Positions 2,723 to 28,913 of a stretch of DNA of 40,051 nt are shown here, one piece after another (the first letter of the stretch is position 1; every line of letters starts with the position of its first letter). Location of the stretch: positions 1-40,051 of the forward strand of contig JAGGSF010000080.1 in assembly GCA_021159235.1 (NCBI GenBank), read 5' to 3'. The notes beneath the pieces were generated by a model that worked only from the letters and a program-made list of their open reading frames with translations, did not search any database and was not told where the DNA came from. The DNA is from Deltaproteobacteria bacterium (GTDB lineage: Bacteria > Campylobacterota_A > Desulfurellia > JAGGSF01). The translations under genes were made by a program, and so were the position numbers.

Positions 2723-2811
2723 ATCATATTACTCCACGATTTAATTTTTCCGAAATGCAACATCATATATAATTCTATTTATGAAAAAGTAAAGTAAGAC
2801 TGAGTTATTTA

Positions 2812-11454: not shown

Positions 11455-11464
11455 GTAAAACTCC

Positions 11465-12849: not shown

Positions 12850-13314
12850 ATGGAAGAGGAAGCAAAAAGGGTAAAGTTTTACAAAGCTCAGGTCTGGGGG
12901 CAGATAGAGGAAAAATCCATCCCCTCCAGATATATGAAAAACAGGATTATTCTCTTGTCGGTTGATCCCTATCATCTATTTACATCCTGGGAAGTGATGG
13001 AAAAACCGCCTTTTATAATCAGAGTATTTGATTTTACCCGCAGGTTTTTTCCGCAGTACAATGAAGTCTTTTCATTTAAAGTAGAAAGTGATGTAGGAAA
13101 CTGGTATATGAATGGAAAACCCTCGGCTGTCTATCTTGCTCAGATAGGTAAGGTAAAAGAGGGGAAATTTATCCTGATTGCTCAATCAAACATTGTTCAG
13201 ATGCCCAATGGCTCTGTATCCACCAGCAGGATATGTATGGAGATGAGAAAGATAAGGATAGAGGAAAAAAAGATACTTAAAGAGGAAAAAATGGAACACG
13301 CTTATGAAAGATGA
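12850..13314 (+). CDS. DUF4912-like protein (usual companion of GH57 branching enzymes)
   Basis: 154 aa. The segment IPSRYMKNRIILLSVDPYHLFTSWEV resembles the conserved DUF4912 core. It overlaps the downstream GH57 gene by 11 nt. Confidence 0.6.
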   Translation: MEEEAKRVKFYKAQVWGQIEEKSIPSRYMKNRIILLSVDPYHLFTSWEVMEKPPFIIRVFDFTRRFFPQYNEVFSFKVESDVGNWYMNGKPSAVYLAQIGKVKEGKFILIAQSNIVQMPNGSVSTSRICMEMRKIRIEEKKILKEEKMEHAYER

Positions 13315-14890
13315 CTTGGGTTTTTTAAATCTGGTTTTGCATGCCCACCTTCCTTATGTTCGCCATCCTGAATTTGATGATTTTCTGGAGGAGGATTGGT
13401 TTTACGAGGCATTGTGGGAAACATATATTCCATTTATAGATATGCTGGAAAGATTATGTTATGAAGATGTGGACTTTAGTATAACACTCAGTCTGTCTCC
13501 TACCCTGTGTTCTATGATGGAAGATGAACTGTTAACAGAGAGATTTTTAAGAAAAATGGAAAATTTGAAAGGGCTTATCTTTAAGGAGAAAGAGAGACTG
13601 AAGAACACTGCGTTTGAAAAATCTGTAGGAATGTATGAGAAGAGGATGAAAAAGATAGAAGAGATAATTTCACGCTACAATCCTGTTACGAAAGCATTTA
13701 AAAGATTTTTTGAAGAAAAAAAACTGAATCTCATCACAACATCTGCTACCCATATCTTTATGCCGCATCTGCGATATGCAGGAAAAGCAAACGAAGCACA
13801 GATAAAAATAGGAATTGAGTATTTAAAAACTGTATTCGGTAGAAGACCGAAGGGCTTTTGGCTACCTGAATGTGGATATTACAGGGGTGTGGAAGATATA
13901 CTGGAGAAGGAAGGTGTGGAGTATTTCTTTGGGGAAACACACTGCATCATGTATGCAGACCACTATCCAAAGAGGGGTGTCTACGCACCGATGTTTACAG
14001 AAAACGGTGTTGCTTGCTTTGCAAGGGATACAGAATCTTCCAGGCAGGTGTGGAGTGCAAGGGAAGGTTATCCTGGAGATTTTGATTACAGGGAATTCTA
14101 CAGAGATGTAGGATTTGATGCTCCTTATGATTACATAAGACCCTACTTGCATAAAGATGGTGTAAGGGGAAACACGGGATTGAAATATTACAGAATCACG
14201 GGCAGTAATGTAGATTTAGGAAAGAAAGAACCATACGATCCTGAAGCTGCCAGAAAAAAGACGATCATCCATGCAGAAGACTTTTTATTCAATAGGCAGA
14301 AGCAGATGAAATATTTAAATACCATTTATAACAGAAAGCCCATCATAAATGCATTCTACGATATGGAGTTGTTTGGTCATTGGTGGTGGGAAGGGATAGA
14401 CTTCTTAGAGGAGGTAATAAGAAAAATAGAGAGATTCAACATAAAACTTATAACGCCGGATGAGTATTTGGATGTGTATCCTGAAAATCAGGTAAGCAGG
14501 TTGAATGAATCCAGCTGGGGATGGAAGGGATATGGAGAGACATGGTTAAACGGAACAAACGATTGGATATACAGACATCTGTACGAAATGGAAGACAGAA
14601 TGGAAGAGATGGCAAAAAAATACAAGGACACAAAAGATAAGAGAATATTATTTATACTGTCTCAGATGGCAAGAGAACTGCTGTTAGCTCAATCCTCCGA
14701 TTGGTTATTTATCATGCATGAAGGCAGTTGCCGCCAGTATGCAGAAAGAAGAGAAAAACTGCATATAAACAGGTTCAATCACATGTATGAAAACCTGAAG
14801 AAAAACTTCATAGATGTGGAATTTGCTGAAGAGAGTTATAAAAAAGACAATATCTTTCCAGCCTTGAACTGGAAGGTCTATGCATGTTAA
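13304..14890 (+). CDS. GH57 family 1,4-alpha-glucan branching enzyme
   Basis: 528 aa. The N-terminal GFLNLVLHAHLPYVRHPE motif, WLPECGY, and a C-terminal helical domain (DUF1957-like, SSDWLFIM) match the GH57 branching enzymes characterised in Thermus and Thermococcus. Confidence 0.85.
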   Translation: MKDDLGFLNLVLHAHLPYVRHPEFDDFLEEDWFYEALWETYIPFIDMLERLCYEDVDFSITLSLSPTLCSMMEDELLTERFLRKMENLKGLIFKEKERLKNTAFEKSVGMYEKRMKKIEEIISRYNPVTKAFKRFFEEKKLNLITTSATHIFMPHLRYAGKANEAQIKIGIEYLKTVFGRRPKGFWLPECGYYRGVEDILEKEGVEYFFGETHCIMYADHYPKRGVYAPMFTENGVACFARDTESSRQVWSAREGYPGDFDYREFYRDVGFDAPYDYIRPYLHKDGVRGNTGLKYYRITGSNVDLGKKEPYDPEAARKKTIIHAEDFLFNRQKQMKYLNTIYNRKPIINAFYDMELFGHWWWEGIDFLEEVIRKIERFNIKLITPDEYLDVYPENQVSRLNESSWGWKGYGETWLNGTNDWIYRHLYEMEDRMEEMAKKYKDTKDKRILFILSQMARELLLAQSSDWLFIMHEGSCRQYAERREKLHINRFNHMYENLKKNFIDVEFAEESYKKDNIFPALNWKVYAC

Positions 14891-18030: not shown

Positions 18031-18966
18031 TTATTTCCCTAATATCTGTCCTTTTTTTAAAGGAAATCCACGCAGGAAGGAAGAGGCATCCATTTTCTTT
18101 CTACCTTCCATTTGAACCTGTTCCAACTTTAAAGCACCATCTTTACACAGGATGTAAAAGGCGTCTCTGTCTATCTTTATTATTTCCCCATAGAAGCTTC
18201 CCTTTTCCTTTAATGAAACGGGAAGAGCTTTTAGAATTTTGAGCCGTTTTCCATTTAAAAATGTGAATGTGCCTGGTCTGGGGTTCATGCCTTTTATCTT
18301 TCTTACGATTGTATAGACAGATTCTCCAAAGTTTAATCTTCCATCCTCCTTTCTTAAAGGAGGGGCATAGGTAGACAATTTTCCGTATTGCTTTTTTCTG
18401 CCAATTCTTCCATATCCTATATTTTCCAAACAGCATAGAAGCATTTTTCTTCCTATGTTTGAGAGTTTCTCTGAAAGTGTGGTGTAGTTGTCTTCCTCAT
18501 CTATCCTTACCACCCATTGCATGAGAATATCGCCGGCATCGATTTTGCTATTGACCTCTATAATTGTTACACCTGTCAGTCTGTCTCCATTGATGATTGT
18601 CCAATTTATGGGAGCAGGCCCTCTATACAGAGGGAGTAAGGAAGGATGAACATTTATCATTCTATGAGGAAAGATTTTGTTCAGTTGCTCAGGGATAAAC
18701 TTTCCGTAGGATACCACAACGCCTATCTGTGCATTACATTTTTTTATCTCCTCTAAAAACGAAGGCGATTTAAGGTCTTCAGGTTGAATTACAGGAATAT
18801 TTAAAATTTGTGCTGCTTCCTTCACCGGAGAGGGTGAGATTATTTTCCCCCTTCCACTTTTTTTATCAGGTGTAGTAACTACACGAACTATCCTGTGATG
18901 TGAATTGTTCAATGTGTAAAGGAAAGGAACCGCCCATTCGGATGTGCCAAAAAATACAATATTCAT
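18031..18966 (-). CDS. fmt: Methionyl-tRNA formyltransferase
   Basis: 311 aa. N-terminal MNIVFFGTSEWAVP, the formyltransferase core (NVHPSLLPLYRGPAPI), and a C-terminal tRNA-binding domain. ATGA overlap with the def stop. Confidence 0.92.
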   Translation of the reverse strand: MNIVFFGTSEWAVPFLYTLNNSHHRIVRVVTTPDKKSGRGKIISPSPVKEAAQILNIPVIQPEDLKSPSFLEEIKKCNAQIGVVVSYGKFIPEQLNKIFPHRMINVHPSLLPLYRGPAPINWTIINGDRLTGVTIIEVNSKIDAGDILMQWVVRIDEEDNYTTLSEKLSNIGRKMLLCCLENIGYGRIGRKKQYGKLSTYAPPLRKEDGRLNFGESVYTIVRKIKGMNPRPGTFTFLNGKRLKILKALPVSLKEKGSFYGEIIKIDRDAFYILCKDGALKLEQVQMEGRKKMDASSFLRGFPLKKGQILGK

Positions 18967-19472
18967 CCAGTTTTCAGGCGCATTTTCCTTCGATAATTGC
19001 GAAAGAGTTCTTTCCTTAAGGGTGAGATGCGGTCAATAAACAGTATGCCATTTAGATGGTCAACTTCATGTTGTGCTACAACGGAAAAAAATGTATCCGT
19101 CTCTATTGTTTTTTCCTCTCCTTTTCTGTTTATATATTTTATCTTTATATATTTTTCTCTTGGTACCGGTGAGTAAAAATCGGGAATGCTCAAGCATCCC
19201 TCTTCATGTTCTTCAAACTTGCCTGCATTTTCTATGATCTCGGGATTTATCATCTCAACCAGACCAAAACCGGGGTCATTCTTTTGCAAATCTATGATGG
19301 CTACCCTTATATTTATTCCTACCTGAGGAGCAGCCAGGCCAATACCCCCATACTTATACATGATCTCCCTCATATTATCCAGAAGCTTTATTATGCTATC
19401 ATCTATCTCCTTTACCTCTTCTGATTTAGCTCTCAATATCTTATCAGGGTAGGTTATCAATTTCACCTTCAT
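18963..19472 (-). CDS. def: Peptide deformylase
   Basis: Motifs GIGLAAPQVG, EGCLSIP and QHEVDHLNG. I trimmed the start to ATG 19472 (MKVKLITYPDKILR) because the ORF-track N-terminal extension runs through two tRNA genes. Confidence 0.92.
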   Translation of the reverse strand: MKVKLITYPDKILRAKSEEVKEIDDSIIKLLDNMREIMYKYGGIGLAAPQVGINIRVAIIDLQKNDPGFGLVEMINPEIIENAGKFEEHEEGCLSIPDFYSPVPREKYIKIKYINRKGEEKTIETDTFFSVVAQHEVDHLNGILFIDRISPLRKELFRNYRRKMRLKTG

Positions 19473-19498
19473 CTTCTCATCCCTCATCATCCATTTAA

Positions 19499-19570
19499 TG
19501 GCCCCAATGGGAATTGAACCCATGTCCCCGGCTTGAGAGGCCGATGTCCTTACCACTAGACTATGGGGCC
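19499..19570 (-). tRNA. tRNA-Glu (anticodon CUC)
   Basis: The reverse complement GGCCCCATAGTCTAGTGGTAAGGACATCGGCCTCTCAAGCCGGGGACATGGGTTCAATTCCCATTGGGGCCA folds as a cloverleaf: 7-bp acceptor stem, anticodon loop CTCTCAA, T-loop TTCAATT. No CCA is encoded. Confidence 0.9.
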
Positions 19571-19574
19571 ATAG

Positions 19575-19645
19575 CTGGGGAGCAGGGATTCGAACCCCGA
19601 TTGACGGATCCAGAGTCCGCTGTCCTGCCGTTAGACGACTCCCCA
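19575..19645 (-). tRNA. tRNA-Gln (anticodon CUG)
   Basis: The reverse complement TGGGGAGTCGTCTAACGGCAGGACAGCGGACTCTGGATCCGTCAATCGGGGTTCGAATCCCTGCTCCCCAG has a U1-A72 pair and G73 discriminator typical of bacterial tRNA-Gln, and the anticodon loop CTCTGGA. No CCA is encoded. Confidence 0.9.
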
Positions 19646-19658
19646 ATACACTAAAAAA

Positions 19659-19686
19659 ATTTAACATCCCCAAAATAATAAGTCAA
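19659..19686 (-). promoter_or_regulatory. Promoter candidate for tRNA-Gln/tRNA-Glu (and probably def-fmt)
   Basis: Minus strand: TTGACT (19686-19681), 16 nt, TTAAAT (19664-19659), 13 nt upstream of the tRNA-Gln 5' end. Confidence 0.35.
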
Positions 19687-19688
19687 CA

Positions 19689-20672
19689 CTATAGTAATCC
19701 TCCATAGCCCAGGTTGTAGATCTCCTCTTCTGTAGGTCTCTCACCTGTTGCAATACGGGGTAGTATAAGATCCAGTGACGACCTGCTACTGCATATGGCA
19801 CCTGCAGGTATGCCAAGGATTACCACCTTTTCGACATAACCGATACTCAAGTAATTGCCAGGCTGAACGGGAAGGCCACGAAAAAATGTTCTGGCTTTAT
19901 CTTTTATCGCCAGATATGTTACATCATCGGGGTCTACAGATGCGCCACCTGTTATCAGTATTACCTCACATCCAAGTTTAATGGATTTTTCTATCTCCAT
20001 CTCTATCACTTCCTTTTTATCTGGCGCTTTTGCAGTATGGATAACATTACAGTTGCAAATACTTTTTATCTTACGTTTCAAAAGAGGTGTAAATGTGTCC
20101 TTTATCCTTCCATAGAAAACTTCGTTGCCTGTGGCGATGATGCCTGTATTTTTTTTCAAAAAAGGCTTGACAGAAACTATACCTCCTCTGGCTATTTCCT
20201 TTGCTCTTTCAATAATCTTCCTTGATGTAAACAGTCCCAAGATGCGCACAGAGGCAATTTTCTGCCCTTTTTCTACTATTTTATTTGAAGGTAAAGTGGG
20301 ACAACTGGGAACTTTTAGTAGATTGAATTGAAGGAGTTTTTCTCTGTCTACCTTTGTCAATCCTTTGAAGGAGGAGTATATATTTATCTTTCCCTCTGAA
20401 GGCTGCCTGTCTCTGTATGTTCCTTCTCCCATTAAACTTTCTGCTAACTCAATTGCCGCATCGTCTTCATGTATTTCGTCAGGCGAGAGGTTGATAGTAT
20501 ATACATGTTCTTTCCCTAAACGCTTGAATTTCTCAACGTCTCCTTTCTGAATTATATATCCTCTTTTAAATAAAGGACCCTTGAATCTTTTCTCTGTGTC
20601 TACAAGTGTTACATCATGTGCCAATGGTTTGCCGATCGCCTGCTCTATCTTGATTTTTTCAATGCGACTCAA
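19689..20672 (-). CDS. MoeA-like / MoCF-biosynthesis (molybdopterin-binding) domain protein, function unknown
   Basis: 327 aa. The N-terminal AIGKPLAHDV resembles the MoeA domain I/II entry. The central GIIATGNEV...ILITGGASVDPDDVT matches the MoeA/MogA/CinA-type molybdopterin-binding fold. It is shorter than canonical MoeA (no domain IV). TTG start overlaps the upstream gene by 14 nt. Confidence 0.55.
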   Translation of the reverse strand: MSRIEKIKIEQAIGKPLAHDVTLVDTEKRFKGPLFKRGYIIQKGDVEKFKRLGKEHVYTINLSPDEIHEDDAAIELAESLMGEGTYRDRQPSEGKINIYSSFKGLTKVDREKLLQFNLLKVPSCPTLPSNKIVEKGQKIASVRILGLFTSRKIIERAKEIARGGIVSVKPFLKKNTGIIATGNEVFYGRIKDTFTPLLKRKIKSICNCNVIHTAKAPDKKEVIEMEIEKSIKLGCEVILITGGASVDPDDVTYLAIKDKARTFFRGLPVQPGNYLSIGYVEKVVILGIPAGAICSSRSSLDLILPRIATGERPTEEEIYNLGYGGLL

Positions 20673-21363
20673 AACATATCCTCTTTAAACCTAAGAGTTT
20701 TTGTGCTGAGGCAATGGTCACACCATAGAATATAACAATTCTGCTTTTGTTATCCTCCTTAAATGTCTTTATTATTTCATCGATCTTTCCATCAGCGATT
20801 GTATTGCCATTTGCTAGAGTTAAGAAAGAGCCTGCTACAATATCTTTCATGTTTCTTTCGTCTTCTATTAGAACACCGTAAAAATTTTTATCCTTATTTT
20901 TACCATCACATATCCTTATATTTTCCTTCCCTATTTTTTTTATCAGAGCTTCAGCGATGATGGGTTGTAATCCCACCATCCCTACGGTAAGAAACATGCC
21001 GTATCTACGAGAAAAACCATAAGCTATTCTCTGTGCACATCTTTTAGCCTCTTTTCCATTGCAGTGCACTGTTCCTTCTATTAGATTCAGATGCTTTAAG
21101 ACGGCATTGGTGCAAGCTATAAACAGTGCTCGATTTTCAGATGTATTTAAATCTATATTTAATATATCTTCTATTTTACCCTGAAAGTTTATAGCACCTG
21201 TGCTGAATGCCTGTCCCTTATTTCCTTTAAAATCTGCTTCTATCAGCGTTTCTTCTTCATGGGGCGAAGACAGGTGGGTTTTAACCTCAATATTTTCATG
21301 CTGGAGACTGTTTTTTTCCACAATGTTTATAAAATTTTCCTTTAATTCTTCAATCATGCTCAT
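20659..21363 (-). CDS. Hypothetical protein, Rossmann-like C-terminal half (possibly DUF364-like), function unknown
   Basis: 234 aa from ATG 21363, 1 nt after the upstream stop (TAAAATG). The track start, TTG 21378, would give 239 aa. Coding is supported by the tight packing and sense-strand consistency. The family assignment rests only on a loose resemblance (FLTVGMVGLQPIIAEALIKK..., AGSFLTLANGNTIADGKIDEII) to DUF364-type proteins. Confidence 0.6.
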   Translation of the reverse strand: MSMIEELKENFINIVEKNSLQHENIEVKTHLSSPHEEETLIEADFKGNKGQAFSTGAINFQGKIEDILNIDLNTSENRALFIACTNAVLKHLNLIEGTVHCNGKEAKRCAQRIAYGFSRRYGMFLTVGMVGLQPIIAEALIKKIGKENIRICDGKNKDKNFYGVLIEDERNMKDIVAGSFLTLANGNTIADGKIDEIIKTFKEDNKSRIVIFYGVTIASAQKLLGLKRICFESH

Positions 21364-21364
21364 T

Positions 21365-22495
21365 TTATAGATTATCAAGCTGTCTATAGGAAATTGCTTG
21401 TTCTGTGTTCATTGAAGTTTTTAGAAAATCATCAAACCAGTAAGCGTCTTTATTTGTTTTGAAAACCATAAGTTGCGATGCATTTTCCAGACCTGGAGAA
21501 CGATGATATTGCATATAGATGTGTTCTGGTGTTGTTCCCACTACTTCAATCTTTCCTGTGGAATGAGACATTATAAAGCGCGCCCTTCCAGCCAGACCGG
21601 AAACCTGCATCCTTGCTTTTCTAAATATCTCATAAGATTCAACTACTGGCACAGCATAAATTCTGTTTCCCAGTGTAGGGCGACACTGAAACACATAGTA
21701 TGAAGATACACCCATAAAGGAAAGTCTACGAAATAGCTCTGCTAAAGTATCAGGGTTATCGTTAACTCCTCTGATGAGCGGTGTTTGATTGACGACAACT
21801 GTACTTGCTTCTAACAGTCGTGTAATGGCGTCAATGCTGACAGGAGTTAACTCTCTGGGATGGTTGAAATTTGTCACTATATAGATGCGTTTTTGAGGTA
21901 AACTGTATCGGCTCAGCATTTCAATTAAAGATGGATCTTCTGTAATCCTGTATGGATTAAACGCAGGTATTTTTGTCCCTATACGAATAATCTTTACATG
22001 TTCAATGCAGCGTATCCTTTGTATAAAATCTTCCAGTTTTCTTGTAGACATAATCAGTGGGTCACCACCCGATAAGAGAACATTGGTAATCTCAGAATGA
22101 TTTCGGAGATATTGCATACTTGGAGAAACATTGTGAGTTACCTCACTATCTCCATTCATAAATAAGCGCTTACGAAAGCAAAAACGGCAGAATCCTCCGC
22201 ACATATTGTTGACAAGCAAAAGAGCTGTATCTGGATATTTATGTTCCAATCCTGCTGCTTTTACATAATGTGCCTCTTTGGAGGCATCGAGCCTGCCCCA
22301 TGGTATCAGTTCTCCTTCATGGGGAACAATTATCCGTCTGATAGGGTCATTTTCATTTGACCAATCAATTAAGGATAAGTAATAATCATTAGCCCTGAAT
22401 GCAAATTTTTTTGTAACCTCTTTTAATATTCGCCGTTGCTCAATGGGAATTTGAGTAACCTGCAGAATATCGGTAATATATCTAATCTTCTTCAC
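21365..22495 (-). CDS. KamA-family radical SAM protein (amino acid 2,3-aminomutase-like), substrate unknown
   Basis: 376 aa. KamA N-terminal motif DYYLSLIDWSNENDPIRRIIVP, radical SAM CGGFCRFC (C99/C103/C106), GGDPL, and a candidate PLP lysine in STGK. GTG start with AAGGAAG SD. Confidence 0.85.
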   Translation of the reverse strand: MKKIRYITDILQVTQIPIEQRRILKEVTKKFAFRANDYYLSLIDWSNENDPIRRIIVPHEGELIPWGRLDASKEAHYVKAAGLEHKYPDTALLLVNNMCGGFCRFCFRKRLFMNGDSEVTHNVSPSMQYLRNHSEITNVLLSGGDPLIMSTRKLEDFIQRIRCIEHVKIIRIGTKIPAFNPYRITEDPSLIEMLSRYSLPQKRIYIVTNFNHPRELTPVSIDAITRLLEASTVVVNQTPLIRGVNDNPDTLAELFRRLSFMGVSSYYVFQCRPTLGNRIYAVPVVESYEIFRKARMQVSGLAGRARFIMSHSTGKIEVVGTTPEHIYMQYHRSPGLENASQLMVFKTNKDAYWFDDFLKTSMNTEQAISYRQLDNL

Positions 22496-22522
22496 ATATC
22501 TTCCTTTTAGTTAGTTGTTTCT

Positions 22523-22551
22523 ATTTTATTTATTTTTATTGCGCCTGTCAA
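22523..22551 (-). promoter_or_regulatory. Sigma70-like promoter candidate for the KamA-like cassette
   Basis: Minus strand: TTGACA (22551-22546), 17 nt, TAAAAT (22528-22523), about 27 nt upstream of the GTG at 22495. Confidence 0.45.
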
Positions 22552-22614: not shown

Positions 22615-23289
22615 TCAGGCGAAGCGTTTTGTTAGATGTTTAATATTTTCAACAAAAAATGCAAGAAGTTCAGGGTCAAAGCAATGGCTGTTTTCTTTCA
22701 TAATCCGTAAGGCTGCTTCAGGCTTAAACGCAGGGCGATAAGGCCTGTTACTTGTTAGCGCATCATAACAATCGGCAATTCGGAGTATCCGCGCAACCAA
22801 GGGAATTTCATCCCCTTTTAATCCCTCGGGATAACCACTCCCGTCAAAATTTTCATGATGATATAGGATAGCATTTCCTATTAACTCATCAAAGAGTAAA
22901 GGCCTGATAAGATTATATCCCAATTTCGTGTGATGTTTAATCATGATAAACTCAGCTTCTGTCAACTTAGTCGGCTTATTTAAGATTTGTTCATTTATAC
23001 CCATTTTTCCAATGTCATGAAGCAGGCCTGCTCGATATATCACCGGAATCTTTTCTTTCGGAAAATTTAACTGGTGGTTTAAAGTAACAAAATTTACTGC
23101 CATCTTAGCTACATGTTCTGAATGTCCTTTCGTATACGGATCTCTTAATTCAAGAGCTCGAGATAGAAGGAGGGATGTTCGTTCAATTACTTCCGATAAC
23201 TCAATAACCTTCTTTCGTTCAATCTTTATTTTTTCTTGTTGCTCGGCGATGGTTTGTTGCTGCTCCCTTATTTTATCATGTTCAGTCAT
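22615..23289 (-). CDS. HD-GYP domain protein (likely cyclic-di-GMP phosphodiesterase) with an N-terminal coiled coil
   Basis: 224 aa. Motifs HSEHVA, LLHDIGKMG and HHENFDGSGYPEGLKG. GAGGAGA SD. Confidence 0.85.
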   Translation of the reverse strand: MTEHDKIREQQQTIAEQQEKIKIERKKVIELSEVIERTSLLLSRALELRDPYTKGHSEHVAKMAVNFVTLNHQLNFPKEKIPVIYRAGLLHDIGKMGINEQILNKPTKLTEAEFIMIKHHTKLGYNLIRPLLFDELIGNAILYHHENFDGSGYPEGLKGDEIPLVARILRIADCYDALTSNRPYRPAFKPEAALRIMKENSHCFDPELLAFFVENIKHLTKRFA

Positions 23290-23381: not shown

Positions 23382-24161
23382 TCAAGAAAAGCTCTTTAAG
23401 CACCTTAAAAACAATATAACTTCTTTGCTACTCCTACAGAAATAGCGGGCTTTTGAATATTTTTTATAACCGACTACGATAGATATATCATCTTCTCTCA
23501 GCACCTTAAATGCATCTTCATCCGTTCTGTCATCGCCTATGTAAATTTTTAATATTTCTTCTCTCAGATTAAGCAGATGTTTCATCTTTATTACTGCCTT
23601 TCCTTTATCCCAGTTGATATTTGGTCTTACCTCATAAACCTTTTTCCCGGAGGTTATTCTCAATGTCTCATGGTAGGGACCGATGATATTCTGAATGATT
23701 TTTTTTATATCCTTCGCAGGTCTTCCTGCGACATTGCGGTAATGAACACTTAAGGTCAGACCTTTGTCTTCAATCAGAATGCCATCTATTGTATTTAATT
23801 GTACCTTTAATTTTTTGACAACATTTTTTAGAAGGGGTTTTGTTCTCTCTGCCTCCGGATGCACCCAACAATGTTCTTTATAAGAAATTTCAAAGCCGTG
23901 ATTCCCGGCATATATTATACCTTCAATCCCTATGAGATCTTTCACTTCACTTAATGAGCGACCGCTGATAATACCTATGGAGATACATGGATTTTGGGAA
24001 AGATCGATCAAAAGCTTTCTTGTTTCAGGTGAAAGTTTAGCTAATGATGGGTCTTTGCAGATAGGCACCAGTGTTCCATCATAATCCAGGCACAACAAGA
24101 TATGTTTGTTTCTTGTTTTATTCTTTATTTCAGAGAAAGAGTTAAACAGATATTTTTTCAC
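23382..24161 (-). CDS. otsB: Trehalose-6-phosphate phosphatase
   Basis: 259 aa. HAD motif I LCLDYDGTLVPI, the trehalose-phosphatase type cap, and IGDDRTDEDAF. The GTG start overlaps the upstream stop (GTGA). Confidence 0.85.
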   Translation of the reverse strand: MKKYLFNSFSEIKNKTRNKHILLCLDYDGTLVPICKDPSLAKLSPETRKLLIDLSQNPCISIGIISGRSLSEVKDLIGIEGIIYAGNHGFEISYKEHCWVHPEAERTKPLLKNVVKKLKVQLNTIDGILIEDKGLTLSVHYRNVAGRPAKDIKKIIQNIIGPYHETLRITSGKKVYEVRPNINWDKGKAVIKMKHLLNLREEILKIYIGDDRTDEDAFKVLREDDISIVVGYKKYSKARYFCRSSKEVILFLRCLKSFS

Positions 24162-25378
24162 AGGTATACTATATCTTCCTTACGATACAACGATAAAAAT
24201 AACAAAAGATAATCACGAATGTGTCTGGTAATAAGAAAATTGTCCTTTATATGTTCTCTTCCGTTTTCCCCCAACTTTTTTGCATATTCGGGATCACTTA
24301 AGAGTTGTTTTATCCAGTAAGCTGTTCCTTCTATGGTATGGGTTAGTATGCCAGAATATCCATGTATAATCTGTAATGGTATGCCTCCCACAGCAGATGC
24401 AATTACCGGTTTTGCCTTCCATAAGGCCTCGGAAACGGTGAGTCCAAAGCCCTCGCGTAAGGATTTCTGAAGTATAATAGTTGAACCTCTTTGCAGGGCA
24501 TTTATCTCTAAATGAGAAGCGGGAGAAAGATGCAATACAAATATATCCTTGTCCTGTTTTGCTTCTTCCATTACCGCCTTAAGCACCTTTTTACCCTCCG
24601 GATCATCTGTTGCTCCACCTCCGGCTAAAACAAGCTGACAATCCATGTGTTTTTTTACAAGACGATAGGCCCTTATTACACCTACAGGATCTTTTAAATA
24701 ATCAAACCTTGAAATTTGGGTTATAACGGGCTTCTCTCTATCAATACCATATCCTTCAAAAACAGAGTCTATGAATTTTTCAGGTAAATCTCTATTTTTC
24801 TCACTCAAAGGATCTATGGAAGGAGAGATGAGAATCTGTTTAGTAGAGATATCTCGACCAAATGTAGGAGCGGAGAAGACAACGGTATCATATTTTTCAA
24901 TGTAGCTTTTCAGAAATGACCAAATACGCTTATTGGGATTGGAAAAGTCGATATGACATCGCCAGATCCAGTTCCTTCCTATTTTATTTCTTTTTTCAAT
25001 AAGTGCAGCAGGTTGAGGATCATGAACAAATATTATGTCACCGTAAAAGTCTATCTCCTCTGCATTTTTTTGGTTGACATCCAAAAAGTAATTTAGTTCA
25101 TCATCTGTAATTTCTACCCTTGCAGAGTGAAGGGCGTTGTGTATCTTTTTGCTTATCACAAAGAATTTTTCATCACCCTTTATAACGTCCCATCCTACAT
25201 TCACACCCAGCTCTTTTAAAAGTGGTATTATTCTGGTTAATATCTCTGCTACTCCACCACCCACAGCAGTAGAATTTATGTTCTGAATCGTTTTTCCAGA
25301 AATCCTATCCGCTAAAAGGTGCAACTCATCAATTATCTCATCTCCAACAATTTTTCTATATTCGCCTAACTTAATCAT
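24158..25378 (-). CDS. TreT-like GT4 glycosyltransferase (trehalose glycosyltransferring synthase family)
   Basis: The N-terminus MIKLGEYRKIVGDEIIDEL...INSTAVGGGVAEILTRIIPLLKELGVNVGWDVIKGDEKFF...HNALH resembles archaeal TreT as I recall it. The C-terminal motif is LREGFGLTVSEALWKAKPVIASAVGGIP. I chose the ATG at 25378, 2 nt after the upstream stop, with an AAGGA SD. The track start at 25501 would overlap the upstream gene by 121 nt. Confidence 0.7.
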   Translation of the reverse strand: MIKLGEYRKIVGDEIIDELHLLADRISGKTIQNINSTAVGGGVAEILTRIIPLLKELGVNVGWDVIKGDEKFFVISKKIHNALHSARVEITDDELNYFLDVNQKNAEEIDFYGDIIFVHDPQPAALIEKRNKIGRNWIWRCHIDFSNPNKRIWSFLKSYIEKYDTVVFSAPTFGRDISTKQILISPSIDPLSEKNRDLPEKFIDSVFEGYGIDREKPVITQISRFDYLKDPVGVIRAYRLVKKHMDCQLVLAGGGATDDPEGKKVLKAVMEEAKQDKDIFVLHLSPASHLEINALQRGSTIILQKSLREGFGLTVSEALWKAKPVIASAVGGIPLQIIHGYSGILTHTIEGTAYWIKQLLSDPEYAKKLGENGREHIKDNFLITRHIRDYLLLFLSLYRKEDIVYL

Positions 25379-25380
25379 TT

Positions 25381-26019
25381 TTAGTTTTCCTTGCAGATGA
25401 TAGAGATTATCTTTTCTCTCAATCCTTCCAGTGTGTATGTGTAAGGATCTAAATGGGAAATTTCTGCGGCGATTCTGTCTTTGCCTAAGTCTCTTAGCCA
25501 TCTGGAAAAGTCGTTGTCCACCTTTCCCAACCTTATCCGGGCCTCAAAGATGTGAAAGTAAAGAGAACTCTTTGATATCTTCCTCAAGATTTCTTTAAAC
25601 TCTTTTAGGTTATGAGCAATATAAGGTGTGGGTAAGATAAATGTTTTGCAAGCCATGAAGTGAAATTCACTGCCTTCGGTACAATTTCTAACCGGTCTGT
25701 TTTTGTCTATGTGCTCTTCTAAGATTTCAATGAACCTATTTCTCAACTCTCTTATGCTTGGAAAGTCGACTATATCTACACTGCCGATTTCTTCTCCCAG
25801 GGTTTTTTCCTCCAGTACATCGCTGATCCAGTAGGCAAAATCATTGGCTGGTTCCGGTAGTAGATAATGGTGCTGTTCCAGGAACTTATGGGTGTGATAA
25901 AAGATGGAGGAATCAGGGACAACCTTTATTCCCTCCAGAAGTTCTATCACATTTTTAGATTTCTTGTTTAAAATTTCTACCAGGTTAAATTGGGTATGAA
26001 AGTAAAATGGTTCAGCCAT
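25381..26019 (-). CDS. Hypothetical protein (212 aa), no recognisable family
   Basis: The ORF fits exactly between otsA (stop, 1 nt, then ATG: TGAAATG) and the TreT-like gene. GGAAGAA SD. The predicted product is soluble, with no motif I can name. Confidence 0.65.
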   Translation of the reverse strand: MAEPFYFHTQFNLVEILNKKSKNVIELLEGIKVVPDSSIFYHTHKFLEQHHYLLPEPANDFAYWISDVLEEKTLGEEIGSVDIVDFPSIRELRNRFIEILEEHIDKNRPVRNCTEGSEFHFMACKTFILPTPYIAHNLKEFKEILRKISKSSLYFHIFEARIRLGKVDNDFSRWLRDLGKDRIAAEISHLDPYTYTLEGLREKIISIICKEN

Positions 26020-26020
26020 T

Positions 26021-27538
26021 TCAAATTTCTTCCAGACCAAGTTTAAAAATCTCGGATAAAATCTTAGCCGTCCAGCGATAGATGTTGTTTTCTTTTACAA
26101 TTTCTCTCATTCTCTGCATCCTCTTTTCCTTTTCCTCTTGGTCCATCTCCAGCGCCTTCTTTATCGTGTCTGCAAACTGGTCTGTGGCGAAAGGATTTAT
26201 AAGCAATGCTGTCTCAAGTTCTCGAGCAGAACCCGTAAATCTACTCAAAATTAAAACACCATCATTATCCCATCTGGATGCGACAAACTCCTTGGCAACG
26301 AGATTCATCCCGTCATGAAGGGAACTGACAATGCATACATCCGCCAAGCGATAGTAGTTTATCAGGTCTTGTTGACAGAAATGAGTCTTACGCAATATGA
26401 TAGGTTGCCAATCTTTGAACTGGTATTTTTCGTTGATTTCAACCATCAGGTGATATACCTCGTCATTATAGTTCTTGTACTGTTGAAGATGAATGCGAGA
26501 AAGGGGGCCTAATTGAAGAAAGGTGAAGCGACCGAGATACTGGGGATATTTTTCAAAAAATCTATCAATTGCCCTAAATCGTTCCAAGATACCCTTTGTA
26601 TAATCAATCCTATCTACACCTATACCTATAAACCTGTTCTTTAATCTGTAATCCCTTTTTATTCTTTTGATATTTTCCTCAACCTCTGGCTTTTTTGACA
26701 TATTTTCTATTCTTTCAAAATCCACACCTATGGGGAATGGTCTGATCAGTGTTTCCTTCTCACGATGAGTTACAGAAGATCTTTCCCGATCTACCTTTGC
26801 TTCAATGAAATGATCTACTGTATCTAAAAAATTTTGACAGTGATAGCGAATATGAAAACCTAACAGATCGTTTCCTAAAAGACCTTCTAATATTTCATTA
26901 CCCCAGGGACATATTCTGAATGTCTCTTCATTGGGCCAGGGAATATGCCAGAACTGAGCAACTGTAATATCCGGCCTTCTGTCTTTGAGAATTTTAGAAA
27001 GCAGGGCGAAATGATAATCCTGGATAAAAACAAAACCCTCATCTTCTCCCATCTCCTCCAGTACAATTTCGGCGAATTTTTCATTTACCTTCCGGTACAT
27101 ATCCCAGTCCGATTTTCTAAAAACAGGCATGGTGTAGGCATTGTGACAGAGTGGCCATAATCCTTCATTGGCAAATCCAAAATAATATCCATTTACTTCC
27201 TCTTTATTCAACCAGACCCTTCTCAGTGTATAACTGGGATTTTCTGGGGGAACCTGAATGTGGTCGTTTGAATCCACAACATCTTTGTCTGCTTCACCGG
27301 AGCCGTGGGCAACCCATGTTCCTCCACAGATCTGCATTACGGTGTTTAATGCCAGTGCCATGCCACTGACAGGCATAACGCACCTGATTTCATCTTCAAA
27401 GAATCTGTGAAGGTAGGGTTCTCTGTTGGATACAATTATAAACCTATATGATCCTATCTTTGTTTTGACTACTTCTCTTAACTTATCTTTATCCCATACC
27501 ACTTTTATTATTCTATTTGCTTTCTGGATAACTGTCAA
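26021..27538 (-). CDS. otsA: Alpha,alpha-trehalose-phosphate synthase (GT20)
   Basis: 505 aa. Contains FIIVSNREPY, GFANEGLWPLCH, the GT20 core, and DGMNLVAKEF. The only in-frame start upstream of the conserved N-terminus is TTG 27538, 1 nt after the thrC stop (GTG 27502 is the alternative). Confidence 0.88.
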   Translation of the reverse strand: MTVIQKANRIIKVVWDKDKLREVVKTKIGSYRFIIVSNREPYLHRFFEDEIRCVMPVSGMALALNTVMQICGGTWVAHGSGEADKDVVDSNDHIQVPPENPSYTLRRVWLNKEEVNGYYFGFANEGLWPLCHNAYTMPVFRKSDWDMYRKVNEKFAEIVLEEMGEDEGFVFIQDYHFALLSKILKDRRPDITVAQFWHIPWPNEETFRICPWGNEILEGLLGNDLLGFHIRYHCQNFLDTVDHFIEAKVDRERSSVTHREKETLIRPFPIGVDFERIENMSKKPEVEENIKRIKRDYRLKNRFIGIGVDRIDYTKGILERFRAIDRFFEKYPQYLGRFTFLQLGPLSRIHLQQYKNYNDEVYHLMVEINEKYQFKDWQPIILRKTHFCQQDLINYYRLADVCIVSSLHDGMNLVAKEFVASRWDNDGVLILSRFTGSARELETALLINPFATDQFADTIKKALEMDQEEKEKRMQRMREIVKENNIYRWTAKILSEIFKLGLEEI

Positions 27539-27539
27539 T

Positions 27540-28913
27540 CTATCTCAGTGCATGTTGTTCGATAAATGTTTTCACTTTCTTAATGGAAGCATCGATAACG
27601 GTAAATCTCTCTTTCTTTTTCTCTATATCTTGTAGAGAAGGTGGTATGGGTGGAAACATACCTATACTTTCTTTTACAGGTTTTTGAAATTTTGCAGGAT
27701 GGGCGGTAGCTAAACAGATTAGTGGTTTTTCCTTATCTCTAAGTTTTCTTCCCACCCTCACTCCAACTGCAGTATGAGGATCGAGAATGTATCCCGTTTC
27801 TCTGTAAAAGTCTCTTATCTCTTCTATTGTTTCAGTTTCTGAAGCCTTTGCAGAGAGGAAATCTACTTGAACTGTTTGTAACCTCTGTTTGTCTATCTTT
27901 ATCTCTCCATATTTAGAAAATGTGTCCATCAGTTGTCTTACTTTTTCACCGTCTTCATCAAACAGGTAATACAGGTAACGCTCAAAATTGCTGGCTATCT
28001 GTATATCCATGGAGGGGCTTATGGTATTTACAACCTTGCCCTTTTTGTAGATGCCCGTGTTTACGAATTTTGACAGTATATCATTTTCATTCGTAGCGAG
28101 GATGAGTTTGTCTATATTGAGCCCCATTCTTTTGGCTATAAAACCAGCAAAGATATTACCGAAATTGCCCGTGGGAACACTGAAGTAAACAGAACCTTCA
28201 GTGGAAATCTGAAAATAGGCGTAAAAATAGTAGATGATTTGAGCTAAAATGCGCGTCCAGTTTATGGAATTTACTGCTCCCAACATGTATTTTTTCTTAA
28301 ACTCACTGTCGGAGAATATCTTTTTTACAATGTACTGGCAGTCATCAAATGAACCCTTTATAGCAATACAGAATACATTTTTGTCTTTTACCGTAGTCAT
28401 CTGTTTTTGCTGGATGGGACTGACCTTTCCATAGGGGTAAAGGATGAATATATTCATATTCTTCTTACCCTTAATTCCTTCTATGGCTGCACTGCCTGTA
28501 TCACCGGATGTAGCTCCCAGTATATTCATCTTTTTCCCCTCTTCCTGCAAAATGTATTCAAATAGATTACCCAGAAATTGGAGGGCGATATCTTTAAAAG
28601 CAAGTGTTGGTCCATGGAATAGTTCTGCAATATATATACCGGCTTTTTTTACCACCGGCACAATCTTCTCCGTATCAAAAGAAGAATAACTCTTCTGAAT
28701 AAGTCTCCATAGTGTGTTTTCCTCTATCTCATCGCCGATATACATCTTCATTAGATAAAGTGCCAGCTCTTTAAAATTGAGCGAAGAAAGGTTCTCTTCA
28801 ACAACGGGGATATACTGAGGAACGAGTAAACCACCATCATCAGCAAGCCCCATCTTCACTGCTTGTATGAATGAGATATTCTTTACTTTGCTCCTTGTGC
28901 TTTTGTAAAGCAT
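27540..28913 (-). CDS. thrC: Threonine synthase (long, E. coli/plant-type)
   Basis: 457 aa. N-terminal YKSTRSK...SFIQAVKMGLADDGGLLVP, the PLP-lysine motif FHGPTLAFKD, and ATSGDTGSAA. Confidence 0.88.
   Translation of the reverse strand: MLYKSTRSKVKNISFIQAVKMGLADDGGLLVPQYIPVVEENLSSLNFKELALYLMKMYIGDEIEENTLWRLIQKSYSSFDTEKIVPVVKKAGIYIAELFHGPTLAFKDIALQFLGNLFEYILQEEGKKMNILGATSGDTGSAAIEGIKGKKNMNIFILYPYGKVSPIQQKQMTTVKDKNVFCIAIKGSFDDCQYIVKKIFSDSEFKKKYMLGAVNSINWTRILAQIIYYFYAYFQISTEGSVYFSVPTGNFGNIFAGFIAKRMGLNIDKLILATNENDILSKFVNTGIYKKGKVVNTISPSMDIQIASNFERYLYYLFDEDGEKVRQLMDTFSKYGEIKIDKQRLQTVQVDFLSAKASETETIEEIRDFYRETGYILDPHTAVGVRVGRKLRDKEKPLICLATAHPAKFQKPVKESIGMFPPIPPSLQDIEKKKERFTVIDASIKKVKTFIEQHALR

What the first reader, a model, noticed from the sequence alone, without database searches (positions are those of the whole stretch)
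19689..22551. Orphan three-gene cassette: KamA-like radical SAM, unassignable Rossmann-like protein, MoeA-like molybdopterin-binding-domain protein
Three minus-strand ORFs are packed like a translationally coupled unit. The junction between genes 1 and 2 is TAA-A-ATG, and genes 2 and 3 overlap by 14 nt with a TTG start. The unit has its own TTGACA-17-TAAAAT promoter (22551-22523) and is followed by a separate tRNA promoter. None of the known partners of KamA-family enzymes is present: lysine fermentation genes kamDE/kdd/kce/kal, the EF-P beta-lysylation gene epmA, or the N-epsilon-acetyl-beta-lysine acetyltransferase ablB. Instead the aminomutase-like enzyme sits with a 234-aa protein I cannot place. 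That protein loosely resembles DUF364, a family proposed from a structural-genomics structure to chelate heavy metals. The third gene encodes a truncated MoeA-like protein carrying the metal-inserting molybdopterin-binding fold. A beta-amino-acid-forming radical enzyme paired with two metal- or cofactor-handling folds suggests an undescribed small-molecule pathway, such as a metallophore or cofactor. That functional idea is speculation; the gene arrangement is what the sequence shows.
Basis: partly seen in the sequence, partly recalled or inferred. Interest (0 to 1): 0.7.

Follow-up and report, generated by a model that had tools for sequence, protein, structure and literature searches.

The report
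Aminomutase gene fused to molybdenum-cofactor pair
The three tightly packed genes are real and share a conserved promoter, but only genes 2 and 3 recur together in other microbes, beside molybdenum/tungsten uptake and cofactor-maturation genes. The radical-SAM aminomutase joins them in just one narrow bacterial lineage.

Summary
The gene arrangement is as described: junctions TAA-A-ATG and a 14-nt overlap, and a TTGACA-17-TAAAAT promoter conserved in relatives. All three fold guesses hold.

- Gene 1 passes the KamA family model only. It belongs to a widespread, highly conserved, uncharacterised clade. The clade keeps the Fe-S cysteines, the carboxylate-binding Arg and the PLP Lys. It replaces the lysine-binding Asp293 of lysine aminomutase with an invariant Arg, so it is not a lysine enzyme.
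- Gene 2 is a divergent DUF364 protein, shown by predicted fold and by homologs carrying PF04016.
- Gene 3 is a MoeA-like molybdopterin-binding protein without the C-terminal domain.

Synteny splits the trio. Of 80 genomes carrying gene-1 orthologs, only one close relative (a Desulfurellaceae MAG) has genes 2 and 3 adjacent. None of 83 loci with gene-2 relatives carries gene 1. Genes 2 and 3, by contrast, are adjacent in at least five other lineages, in either order. There they sit among ModABC-like transporters, ModE, XdhC, YqeB, YqeC and a xanthine-dehydrogenase-family enzyme.

Best reading: a conserved, uncharacterised Mo/W-cofactor accessory pair, co-transcribed in one clade with an unrelated non-lysine aminomutase. 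An integrated three-enzyme pathway is not excluded but has little support.

The parts
22523..22551 (-). Promoter-like site TTGACA-17-TAAAAT upstream of gene 1
   Evidence: 11 of 12 match, best in the region. The block is conserved in L008, L011 and L018 even where the upstream gene differs.
21365..22495 (-). Gene 1: KamA-family PLP/radical-SAM 2,3-aminomutase of an uncharacterised, non-lysine clade (376 aa, GTG start, AAAGGAAG RBS)
   Evidence: TIGR00238 scores 206.7 against cutoff 199.2, and every equivalog model is far below its cutoff. LAM 2a5h matches at E 2.4e-52. C99/C103/C106, R108 and K315 are invariant. LAM/EpmB Asp293 aligns with invariant R272.
20659..21363 (-). Gene 2: divergent DUF364-fold protein (234 aa) with invariant His100, Cys101, Cys109 and Cys230, and a clade-specific 15-residue deletion
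   Evidence: It has no Pfam or NCBIfam hit of its own. Homologs at 32-44% identity carry PF04016. The AlphaFold model has pLDDT 90.6, and the top Foldseek hits are the DUF364 structures 3npg and 3l5o. Alignment.
19689..20672 (-). Gene 3: MoeA-like molybdopterin-binding-domain protein lacking MoeA domain IV (327 aa, TTG start overlapping gene 2 by 14 nt)
   Evidence: PF00994 at 1.6e-17 over residues 177-307. P. horikoshii MoeA 1uz5 at E 5e-10. Model pLDDT 89.4; Foldseek top hits are MoeA, Cnx1E and gephyrin-E, and the MoCF domain matches MoaB. More than 6500 homologs of about 340 aa.
19658..19686 (-). Weaker promoter-like site TTGACT-17-TAAATT between gene 3 and the tRNA genes
   Evidence: 9 of 12 with TG. 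It marks the downstream end of the unit. No terminator-like hairpin lies between gene 3 and the tRNAs.
19498..19645 (-). tRNA-Gln(CTG) and tRNA-Glu(CTC), downstream neighbours and not part of the cassette
   Evidence: ARAGORN and Rfam. In relative L011 the trio is followed by a PPDK gene, leaving only about 80 nt, too little for the tRNAs.

Best explanation
This is a lineage-specific operon that joins two functionally separate things.

(a) Genes 2 and 3 form a recurrent two-gene accessory module of molybdenum/tungsten-pterin cofactor metabolism. Gene 3 supplies a molybdopterin-binding (MogA/MoaB/MoeA-type) domain on a MoeA-like scaffold without domain IV. Gene 2 is a DUF364-fold partner with an invariant His/Cys set. 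Inferred role: together they bind or process the oxyanion or the pterin between uptake and insertion or maturation.

(b) Gene 1 is an ordinary ortholog of a widespread, stand-alone KamA-family aminomutase. It uses a [4Fe-4S]/SAM radical and PLP to move the alpha-amino group to C3 of an amino acid that is not lysine. The side chain is probably anionic, because the position of the lysine-binding Asp holds an invariant Arg. Glutamate is the leading but unproven candidate.

In the Desulfurellaceae-like clade the three genes are transcribed from one conserved promoter. Co-transcription is inferred from the sequence. A shared pathway is not shown and is judged unlikely.
For: Pair conservation: 10 of 83 metagenome loci with gene-2 relatives (29-39% identity) have a full-length gene-3 homolog (36-43%) directly adjacent on the same strand. 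That is 8 of the 40 loci with at least 1.1 kb on both flanks. Both gene orders occur, in at least 5 lineages below 55% identity to one another, with GC from 0.35 to 0.53.

Mo/W context of gene-2 relatives: ModC-like ATPase in 30 loci; permeases; SBP_bac_11 ModA-like protein in 12; canonical DUF364+DUF4213 in 11; Mrp-NifX in 9; YqeB in 8 (TIGR03309, 315-360 bits); XdhC; YqeC; ModE domain; a xanthine-dehydrogenase-family enzyme. Also FdhD, a Mo-oxidoreductase, MoaA and MoeA in L003, and SBP_bac_11 in L006. Fusions to FmdE, ABC_tran and NifU_N.

Mo/W context of gene-3 relatives: inside a mod/tup-like ABC operon next to MoeA in Phorcysia; next to MoaA and a ModE-like HTH; next to FmdE.

Literature: DUF364 lies in the modABC operon of M. 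maripaludis and is cofit with nif (bioRxiv 10.1101/2024.03.05.583561). The association with Mo/W/V transporters was already noted in PMC2954201.

Gene 1 independence: orthologs at 53-62% identity occur in Methanomicrobiales, ANME-2, Nitrospinota, Bryobacterales, Kosmotoga and others. Only L018 (86% identity, Desulfurellaceae MAG) has genes 2 and 3 adjacent. There is no conserved neighbour and no Mo/W enrichment. Gene 1 is found in 0 of 83 gene-2 loci. The window protein keeps every invariant residue of the clade.

Non-lysine specificity: LAM D293 and the EpmB Asp align with invariant R272. The D330 region reads Met-Ser-His.

Operon: junctions and a conserved promoter block.
Against: The tight packing (1-nt spacer, 14-nt overlap) and a dedicated conserved promoter are what a single functional unit would look like. 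The trio stays intact while both flanks change: an HD gene is inserted upstream here, and def-fmt is replaced by PPDK downstream in L011. No Mo/W enzyme, transporter or other cofactor gene lies in the 40 kb. This clade's gene 2 has lost a 15-residue loop conserved in all other subfamily members, which could mean a changed function. The one characterised DUF364 enzyme acts on an amino-acid moiety and co-occurs with radical-SAM enzymes (PMC12930334). No biochemical function is known for any of the three subfamilies, so the roles given to genes 2 and 3 rest on context alone.
Confidence: 0.55

Rival explanations
1. Integrated three-enzyme pathway. The aminomutase makes a beta-amino acid. The DUF364 enzyme and the molybdopterin-binding-fold protein then use it to build or modify a small molecule, either a Mo/W-binding metallophore or a modified pterin cofactor, specific to this clade.
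For: Translationally coupled packing and one conserved promoter. The trio is kept intact across flank rearrangements in relatives. The clade-specific deletion and fast divergence of gene 2 suggest a new specificity (44% identity to the nearest outside homolog, against 52% for gene 3 and 62% for gene 1). The characterised DUF364 enzyme Orf5 cyclises the amino-acid part of 4''-methyl-SAM and co-occurs with radical-SAM enzymes (PMC12930334).
Against: The trio is confined to one narrow clade. Gene 1 is a typical member of a clade that is stand-alone in 79 of 80 other genomes, with all invariant residues kept. The pair occurs without gene 1 in at least 5 other lineages. No transporter, ligase or export gene that a metallophore pathway would need lies nearby.
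Confidence: 0.2
2. Gene 1 belongs physiologically with the adjacent trehalose genes as a compatible-solute enzyme, for example a beta-glutamate-type solute. Its co-transcription with the Mo/W pair is incidental. This is a specific sub-case of the best explanation for gene 1.
For: Directly upstream on the same strand lie OtsA, DUF5752, TreT and trehalose-phosphatase, an order conserved in relatives. GH65 phosphorylase, beta-PGM-like HAD and GT4 genes lie elsewhere in the window. Beta-amino acids made by KamA-family enzymes are known osmolytes, and ablA and eam are under Na+ riboswitches in some bacteria (PMC9337991). An Arg at the Asp293 position fits an acidic substrate.
Against: Gene 1 has its own conserved promoter, separate from the trehalose genes. 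No riboswitch was found. The glutamate 2,3-aminomutase equivalog model is far from met (216 against 650 bits). Orthologs show no conserved osmolyte-gene neighbours. For Methanococcales, NMR data were reported to rule out a glutamate aminomutase route to beta-glutamate (PMC1224877).
Confidence: 0.15
3. Genes 2 and 3 have nothing to do with Mo/W in this organism. The MoCF-type domain also occurs in CinA-like NMN deamidases, and the DUF364 fold in SAM-utilising enzymes. The pair could therefore act on a nucleotide or SAM-derived metabolite.
For: Gene 3 gives weak hits to CinA-type models (E 1e-3 to 6e-6). There are no Mo/W genes in the window. Gene 2 has the loop deletion.
Against: CinA hits are weaker than MoeA/MoaB hits. 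Both families repeatedly sit in mod/tup, XdhC, YqeB, YqeC, FmdE, MoaA and MoeA contexts across lineages.
Confidence: 0.07

Closest known systems
Lysine 2,3-aminomutase (KamA/LAM, PDB 2A5H) and EF-P lysine aminomutase EpmB
   Same: Same family and catalytic apparatus: the CxxxCxxC radical-SAM motif, an Arg after the third Cys, a PLP-binding Lys in a G-K motif, and about 35% identity to LAM over 320 residues.
   Different: The Asp that binds the lysine epsilon-amino group (D293 in LAM, conserved in EpmB) is an invariant Arg. The D330 region is Met-Ser-His with a 2-residue deletion. The protein lacks the LAM C-terminal extension. Equivalog scores are far below cutoff (220 against 525; 177 against 369). 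No kamDE, ablB or epmA partner is present.
Glutamate 2,3-aminomutase (Eam, TIGR04368)
   Same: A KamA-family enzyme in which the lysine-binding Asp is replaced by a basic residue. That Eam has Lys/Asn at these positions is recalled from Ruzicka and Frey 2007, not tested here.
   Different: The score is 216 against a cutoff of 650 bits. The residue here is Arg rather than Lys, followed by Ser/His rather than Asn. The substrate is untested.
DUF364 / PF04016 (structures Dhaf4260 3L5O and PH1506 3NPG; enzyme Orf5, a methyl-azetidine-carboxylate synthase)
   Same: Two-domain fold (enolase-N-like plus Rossmann-like) matched over about 230 residues at probability 1.0. It shares the genomic association with molybdate/tungstate transport noted for DUF364 (PMC2954201; bioRxiv 10.1101/2024.03.05.583561).
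   Different: It belongs to a separate branch. The window protein misses the Pfam model, and the profile match to 3npg is only E 0.028. It has an invariant His-Cys...Cys...Cys set, and this clade has a 15-residue deletion. This branch often sits beside a canonical DUF364+DUF4213 paralog rather than replacing it. No B12-radical-SAM methylase is present, unlike the Orf5 context.
MoeA / Cnx1E / gephyrin-E molybdenum insertase, and MogA/MoaB
   Same: The MoCF_biosynth domain carries the GG-S-V-D-P-D-D signature. Foldseek top hits are MoeA-family proteins, and the MoCF domain superposes on MoaB with target-normalised TM 0.6-0.7.
   Different: No MoeA_N or MoeA_C Pfam match. The protein is about 75 residues shorter and ends about 20 residues after the MoCF domain. 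The global TM to MoeA is only about 0.35, so the domain arrangement differs. The MoeA equivalog scores 28.7 against a cutoff of 440. In Phorcysia it is encoded next to a full-length MoeA, so it is an addition and not a replacement.
Selenium-dependent molybdenum hydroxylase maturation set (YqeB, YqeC, XdhC)
   Same: Relatives of the gene 2 + gene 3 pair lie directly beside YqeB, YqeC, XdhC and a xanthine-dehydrogenase-family enzyme.
   Different: None of these genes is in this window. The pair is not part of the described marker set as far as I know.

Membership tests
KamA family radical SAM (TIGR00238) | Whole-protein score above the curated cutoff | tested here: met
   206.7 bits against cutoff 199.2
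KamA family radical SAM (TIGR00238) | CxxxCxxC cluster motif, the Arg after it, and the PLP-binding Lys | tested here: met
   C99, C103, C106, R108 and K315 are invariant in 21 orthologs and aligned to LAM and EpmB
Lysine 2,3-aminomutase (AblA TIGR03820; EpmB TIGR03821) | Equivalog score above cutoff | tested here: not met
   220 against 525.4, and 176.8 against 369.3
Lysine 2,3-aminomutase (AblA TIGR03820; EpmB TIGR03821) | Acidic residues binding the lysine epsilon-amino group (LAM Asp293 and Asp330; their role is from my knowledge of Lepore et al. 2005) | tested here: not met
   Asp293 of LAM and the corresponding Asp of EpmB align with invariant Arg272. The Asp330 region is Met309-Ser310-His311.
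Lysine 2,3-aminomutase (AblA TIGR03820; EpmB TIGR03821) | Partner genes (kamDE/kdd/kce/kal, ablB, epmA) nearby | tested here: not met
   None in the 40 kb. No GNAT or EpmA-like neighbour is enriched among orthologs.
Glutamate 2,3-aminomutase (TIGR04368) | Equivalog score above cutoff | tested here: not met
   216.4 against 650
Glutamate 2,3-aminomutase (TIGR04368) | Activity on L-glutamate | not testable with these tools
   Needs an anaerobic enzyme assay
DUF364 (PF04016) | Pfam model match | tested here: inconclusive
   The window protein has no hit. Its homologs at 32-44% identity carry PF04016, and fused subfamily members score 23-46 bits against cutoff 23.
DUF364 (PF04016) | Enolase-N-like plus Rossmann-like two-domain fold | tested here: met
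   Model pLDDT 90.6. The top six Foldseek hits are 3npg and 3l5o chains, probability 1.0, 230-241 aligned columns, TM 0.54-0.59.
DUF364 azetidine-carboxylate synthase (Orf5 type) | Sequence relationship to Orf5 and a neighbouring B12-radical-SAM C-methyltransferase | not tested
No B12-radical-SAM gene is in the window.
MoeA molybdopterin molybdotransferase | Four-domain architecture: MoeA_N (PF03453), MoCF_biosynth (PF00994) and MoeA_C (PF03454) | tested here: not met
   Only PF00994 is found, at residues 177-307 of 327. The MoeA equivalog NF007960 scores 28.7 against 440. Global TM to MoeA is about 0.35.
MoCF_biosynth domain proteins (PF00994) | Domain match above the gathering score | tested here: met
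   64 bits against 26.6. The domain superposes on MoaB with target-normalised TM 0.6-0.7.
MoCF_biosynth domain proteins (PF00994) | Binding of molybdopterin or MPT-AMP | not testable with these tools
   Needs purified protein and a Form A or MPT assay

The most novel reading that the evidence does not exclude
In this Desulfurellaceae-like clade a non-lysine KamA-type aminomutase has been recruited to the DUF364/MoeA-like pair. The beta-amino acid it makes is then processed by the loop-deleted DUF364 enzyme into a new ligand or modification of the molybdenum/tungsten-pterin cofactor, or into a Mo/W-chelating small molecule. That would be an undescribed branch of Mo/W cofactor chemistry.
Probability: 0.15. 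Interest if true: 0.8.

Novelty: new variant of a known kind. Interest (0 to 1): 0.42.

Why it matters
Three uncharacterised protein subfamilies come into focus.

1. A DUF364-branch protein and a MoeA-like protein without domain IV recur as a pair beside molybdate/tungstate uptake genes and the XdhC, YqeB and YqeC maturation genes. They are candidates for a missing step between oxyanion uptake and cofactor insertion, and the pairing gives a concrete two-protein system to test.

2. Gene 1 represents a KamA-family clade conserved at about 60% identity from methanogens to Acidobacteria. An Arg sits where lysine enzymes have Asp. Finding its substrate would add a new radical-SAM aminomutase activity and possibly a source of a beta-amino acid metabolite.

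The three-gene cassette itself appears to be a local operon fusion and not a new pathway.

Tried and rejected
- Lysine 2,3-aminomutase, AblA or EpmB identity for gene 1: rejected on equivalog scores and on the Asp-to-Arg change.
- A conserved neighbour that would reveal gene 1's role: none found. Clustering all ORFs within 5 kb in 80 loci gave only genus-level conservation. A Pfam survey of 127 immediate neighbours gave scattered families: NIF3 7, FTCD 6, radical SAM 6, Glu/Gln-tRNA synthetase 5, NRPS 4.
- Mo/W gene enrichment near gene-1 orthologs: none, apart from a MoeA about 3 kb away in one ANME-2 lineage.
- Riboswitch or other RNA upstream of gene 1: only tRNAs pass Rfam thresholds in the window.
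- Direct sequence match of gene 2 to solved structures: none with the single sequence and marginal with the profile (E 0.028). Fold comparison was needed.
- Literature on the 340-aa MoeA-like family: nothing found in the MoeA evolution paper or the D. vulgaris fitness paper.
- The papers defining LAM Asp293/Asp330 and Eam Lys/Asn were not in the library, so those roles are cited from memory.


Full report
**1. The observation**

Three minus-strand ORFs occupy 19689-22495:
- gene 1 at 21365-22495 (376 aa, GTG start after AAAGGAAG);
- gene 2 at 20659-21363 (234 aa from the ATG);
- gene 3 at 19689-20672 (327 aa, TTG start after AGAGGA).

The sequence shows the junctions exactly as reported. Gene 1 ends in TAA, one A follows, then the ATG of gene 2. 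Gene 3's TTG lies 14 nt before gene 2's TGA.

TTGACA (22551-22546), a 17-nt spacer and TAAAAT (22528-22523) form the best promoter-like site in the region, at 11 of 12. The overall number of promoter-like sites in this AT-rich stretch is not above chance (10 against 12.4 in shuffles). Conservation gives the site weight. The ~65 nt from AATTTGACA to the start codon are nearly identical in relatives L008, L011 and L018. In those relatives the gene upstream is the trehalose phosphatase, not the HD-domain gene found here, and the sequence further upstream is unrelated.

A weaker site (TTGACT-17-TAAATT, 19686-19658) precedes tRNA-Gln and tRNA-Glu. All three genes are under purifying selection (dN/dS 0.13-0.27 against two relatives).

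**2. Gene 1**

Gene 1 passes only the general KamA-family model (TIGR00238, 206.7 against 199.2 bits). It is far below every equivalog cutoff:

| Model | Score (bits) | Cutoff (bits) |
|---|---|---|
| AblA | 220 | 525 |
| Glutamate 2,3-aminomutase | 216 | 650 |
| Arginine 2,3-aminomutase | 214 | 600 |
| AblA-like-2 | 211 | 396 |
| EpmB | 177 | 369 |

Its only solved relative is Clostridium LAM, PDB 2A5H (E 2.4e-52).

Homologs at 53-62% identity are abundant. They occur in Methanomicrobiales, ANME-2/Methanosarcinales, Nitrospinota, Bryobacterales and other Acidobacteriota, Calditrichia, Krumholzibacteriia, Kosmotoga and others. This is an unusually well conserved orthologous group.

Across 21 members the cluster cysteines (C99, C103, C106), R108 and K315 are invariant. 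An alignment with LAM and E. coli EpmB shows a key difference. Both lysine enzymes share an Asp (LAM D293), which to my knowledge binds the lysine epsilon-amino group. That position is an invariant Arg (R272) in this clade. The region of LAM D330 is an invariant Met-Ser-His with a two-residue deletion.

Gene 1 therefore works like a PLP/radical-SAM 2,3-aminomutase but is not a lysine aminomutase. An amino acid with an anionic side chain is the simplest inference, with glutamate the leading candidate. This is unproven. A review also reports NMR evidence against a glutamate aminomutase route to beta-glutamate in Methanococcales (PMC1224877).

**3. Gene 2**

Gene 2 has no Pfam, NCBIfam or PDB sequence hit of its own. 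The word-indexed search found only 18 homologs. Nine are close (78-99% identity) and nine are distant (32-44%) and carry PF04016/DUF364. A profile of these finds 820 cluster representatives in the exhaustive library.

The AlphaFold model is confident (pLDDT 90.6). Its six best Foldseek matches are the two DUF364 crystal structures, 3npg and 3l5o, over about 230 columns.

The branch has invariant His100, Cys101, Cys109 and Cys230. The window's clade alone has deleted a 15-residue loop (AIGxPxRxDFPxxxGKE) that all other members conserve. Fusion partners within the branch include FmdE, a ModC-type ABC ATPase, NifU_N, a class IV aminotransferase and a GNAT.

**4. Gene 3**

Gene 3 carries PF00994 at residues 177-307 and nothing else. 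It hits archaeal MoeA 1uz5 over residues 125-305. It belongs to a very large family of ~340-aa proteins annotated as molybdopterin-binding proteins (more than 6500 hits).

The model (pLDDT 89.4) retrieves MoeA, Cnx1E and gephyrin-E first, but with a global TM of only about 0.35. The MoCF domain alone superposes on MoaB with a target-normalised TM of 0.6-0.7. There is no MoeA_N or MoeA_C match, and the chain ends about 20 residues after the MoCF domain. It is MoeA-like but fails the MoeA membership test.

**5.

Close relatives keep the trio while the flanks change. This genome has an HD-domain gene inserted upstream. One relative (L011) has PPDK downstream in place of the tRNAs, def and fmt. 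All of these belong to one narrow clade, and the nearest named genome is a Desulfurellaceae MAG.

Outside that clade the trio dissolves:
- Of the 80 best genome loci with gene-1 orthologs, only that MAG has genes 2 and 3 adjacent.
- Gene-1 orthologs have no conserved neighbour and no Mo/W enrichment.
- None of 83 loci with gene-2 relatives contains gene 1.

Genes 2 and 3 behave differently. Ten of those 83 loci carry a full-length gene-3 homolog directly next to the gene-2 homolog on the same strand. That is 8 of the 40 loci with at least 1.1 kb on both sides. Both orders occur, in at least five lineages less than 55% identical to one another. The conserved unit is the pair.

**6. What the pair is associated with**

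Neighbours of gene-2 relatives are dominated by Mo/W functions:
- ModC-like ATPases (30 loci), permeases, and ModA-type SBP_bac_11 proteins (12 loci);
- NMT1-like binding proteins;
- a canonical DUF364+DUF4213 paralog (11 loci);
- Mrp-NifX proteins (9 loci);
- YqeB (8 loci; TIGR03309 at 315-360 bits);
- XdhC, YqeC, ModE domains and a xanthine-dehydrogenase-family enzyme.

Other gene-2 relatives sit with FdhD, TauE and a molybdopterin oxidoreductase plus MoaA and MoeA, or directly before a ModA-like gene.

Gene-3 relatives show the same pattern. They sit inside a mod/tup-type ABC operon immediately before a full-length MoeA in Phorcysia, next to MoaA and a ModE-like regulator, or next to FmdE.

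The literature agrees. DUF364 was linked to Mo/W/V transporters from the first structure paper (PMC2954201). It also lies in a modABC operon cofit with nif in Methanococcus maripaludis (bioRxiv 10.1101/2024.03.05.583561). The only biochemically characterised DUF364 protein, Orf5, cyclises 4''-methyl-SAM to methyl-azetidine-carboxylate (PMC12930334). The fold can therefore be a small-molecule enzyme acting on an amino-acid moiety.

**7. Interpretation**

The best-supported reading (about 0.55) is a composite operon. It contains a conserved but uncharacterised Mo/W-pterin cofactor accessory pair: gene 3 binds the pterin and gene 2 is a Cys/His-bearing DUF364 partner. In one lineage the pair is co-transcribed with a standard member of a stand-alone, non-lysine KamA aminomutase clade.

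Shown:
- fold and family placements;
- active-site residue differences;
- synteny statistics;
- promoter conservation.

Inferred:
- co-transcription;
- the Mo/W role of the pair;
- the anionic substrate of gene 1;
- the lack of a shared pathway.

The main rival (about 0.2) is a true three-enzyme pathway in this clade. It is favoured by the tight coupling, the trio's integrity across rearrangements, the loop deletion in gene 2 and the Orf5 precedent. It is disfavoured by the phyletic pattern.

A sub-case (about 0.15) places gene 1 with the adjacent trehalose genes as an osmolyte enzyme. A minor rival (about 0.07) denies any Mo/W role here, noting weak CinA-like hits and the absence of Mo/W genes in the 40 kb.

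**8. Novelty and score**

All three proteins fall in known superfamilies but in subfamilies with no assigned function. The DUF364-branch plus MoeA-like pairing, and the Arg-for-Asp KamA clade, are useful leads. The orphan three-gene cassette is mostly a lineage-specific operon fusion.

- Interest: 0.42.
- Novelty: new variant of a known kind.
- Novel case (integrated pathway modifying or chelating Mo/W): probability 0.15, interest 0.8 if true.

Noticed in passing
window 22615-23289 (-): An HD_5/HD-domain (HD-GYP-like) gene lies between the trehalose-phosphatase gene and gene 1 here and in L098/L099. It is absent in relatives L008, L010 and L011, where the phosphatase is followed directly by the conserved gene-1 promoter block.
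   Followed up: partly
window 19689-22495 compared with L011 and L008: Synonymous divergence rises steeply along the operon against L011: dS 0.29 for gene 1, 0.87 for gene 2 and 1.51 for gene 3. Against L008 the values are 0.25, 0.58 and 0.64. This suggests a recombination breakpoint, or unusually constrained synonymous sites in gene 1, near the place where the downstream flank also differs.
   Followed up: partly
window 23382-27538 (-) and 1676-5789 (-): There is a dense set of trehalose/maltose genes. OtsA (Glyco_transf_20), DUF5752, TreT and trehalose-phosphatase lie directly upstream of the cassette. A GH65 phosphorylase, a beta-phosphoglucomutase-like HAD and a GT4 glycosyltransferase lie further away. 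A GH57 branching enzyme with DUF4912 is at 12850-14890.
   Followed up: partly
window 18963-19673 (-): The 236-aa ORF listed here is an artefact of the mechanical ORF caller. Its N-terminal part runs across tRNA-Glu and tRNA-Gln (19498-19645). The real peptide deformylase gene is the 169-aa C-terminal part, as called in L098.
   Followed up: yes
window 11047-12664 (-), 29110-31523 (+), 27540-28913 (-): Sulfur amino-acid genes cluster around the cassette: HcyBio (DUF39-type homocysteine synthesis) with a NIL-ferredoxin, SAM synthetase, adenosylhomocysteinase and threonine synthase. This could matter if either radical-SAM or DUF364 chemistry here draws heavily on SAM.
   Followed up: no
P0297, P0330/P0334, P0336, P0322, P0309: The gene-2 branch of DUF364 occurs fused to FmdE, NifU_N, a ModC-type ABC ATPase, a class IV aminotransferase and a GNAT acetyltransferase. 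The last two hint at amino-acid-type substrates for some members.
   Followed up: partly
L148 6745-7551, L156 8054-8857 and six further loci: YqeB (selenium-dependent molybdenum cofactor biosynthesis protein, TIGR03309) lies a median 27 nt downstream of gene-2 relatives in 8 loci, often with YqeC and XdhC. This suggests the DUF364 branch belongs to the selenium-dependent molybdenum hydroxylase maturation neighbourhood.
   Followed up: partly
L052, L059, L064 and one further locus (gene-1 orthologs in Acidobacteriota): Four gene-1 orthologs sit directly beside large NRPS genes (AMP-binding, Condensation, PP-binding). Six sit beside formiminotransferase-cyclodeaminase and five beside Glu/Gln-tRNA synthetase. 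These are scattered hints of a beta-amino-acid or glutamate link.
   Followed up: no
L012 6926-7669: In one otherwise near-identical relative the gene-3 homolog is called as only 247 aa, against 327 aa in L011 and L013. This may be a frameshift or an assembly error in that contig.
   Followed up: no
L133 6862-7605, L125 6750-7505: Gene-2 relatives are frequently followed by a second, canonical DUF364+DUF4213 gene (11 loci). Two DUF364 paralogs may therefore work side by side in Mo/W operons. The window has only the divergent one.
   Followed up: partly
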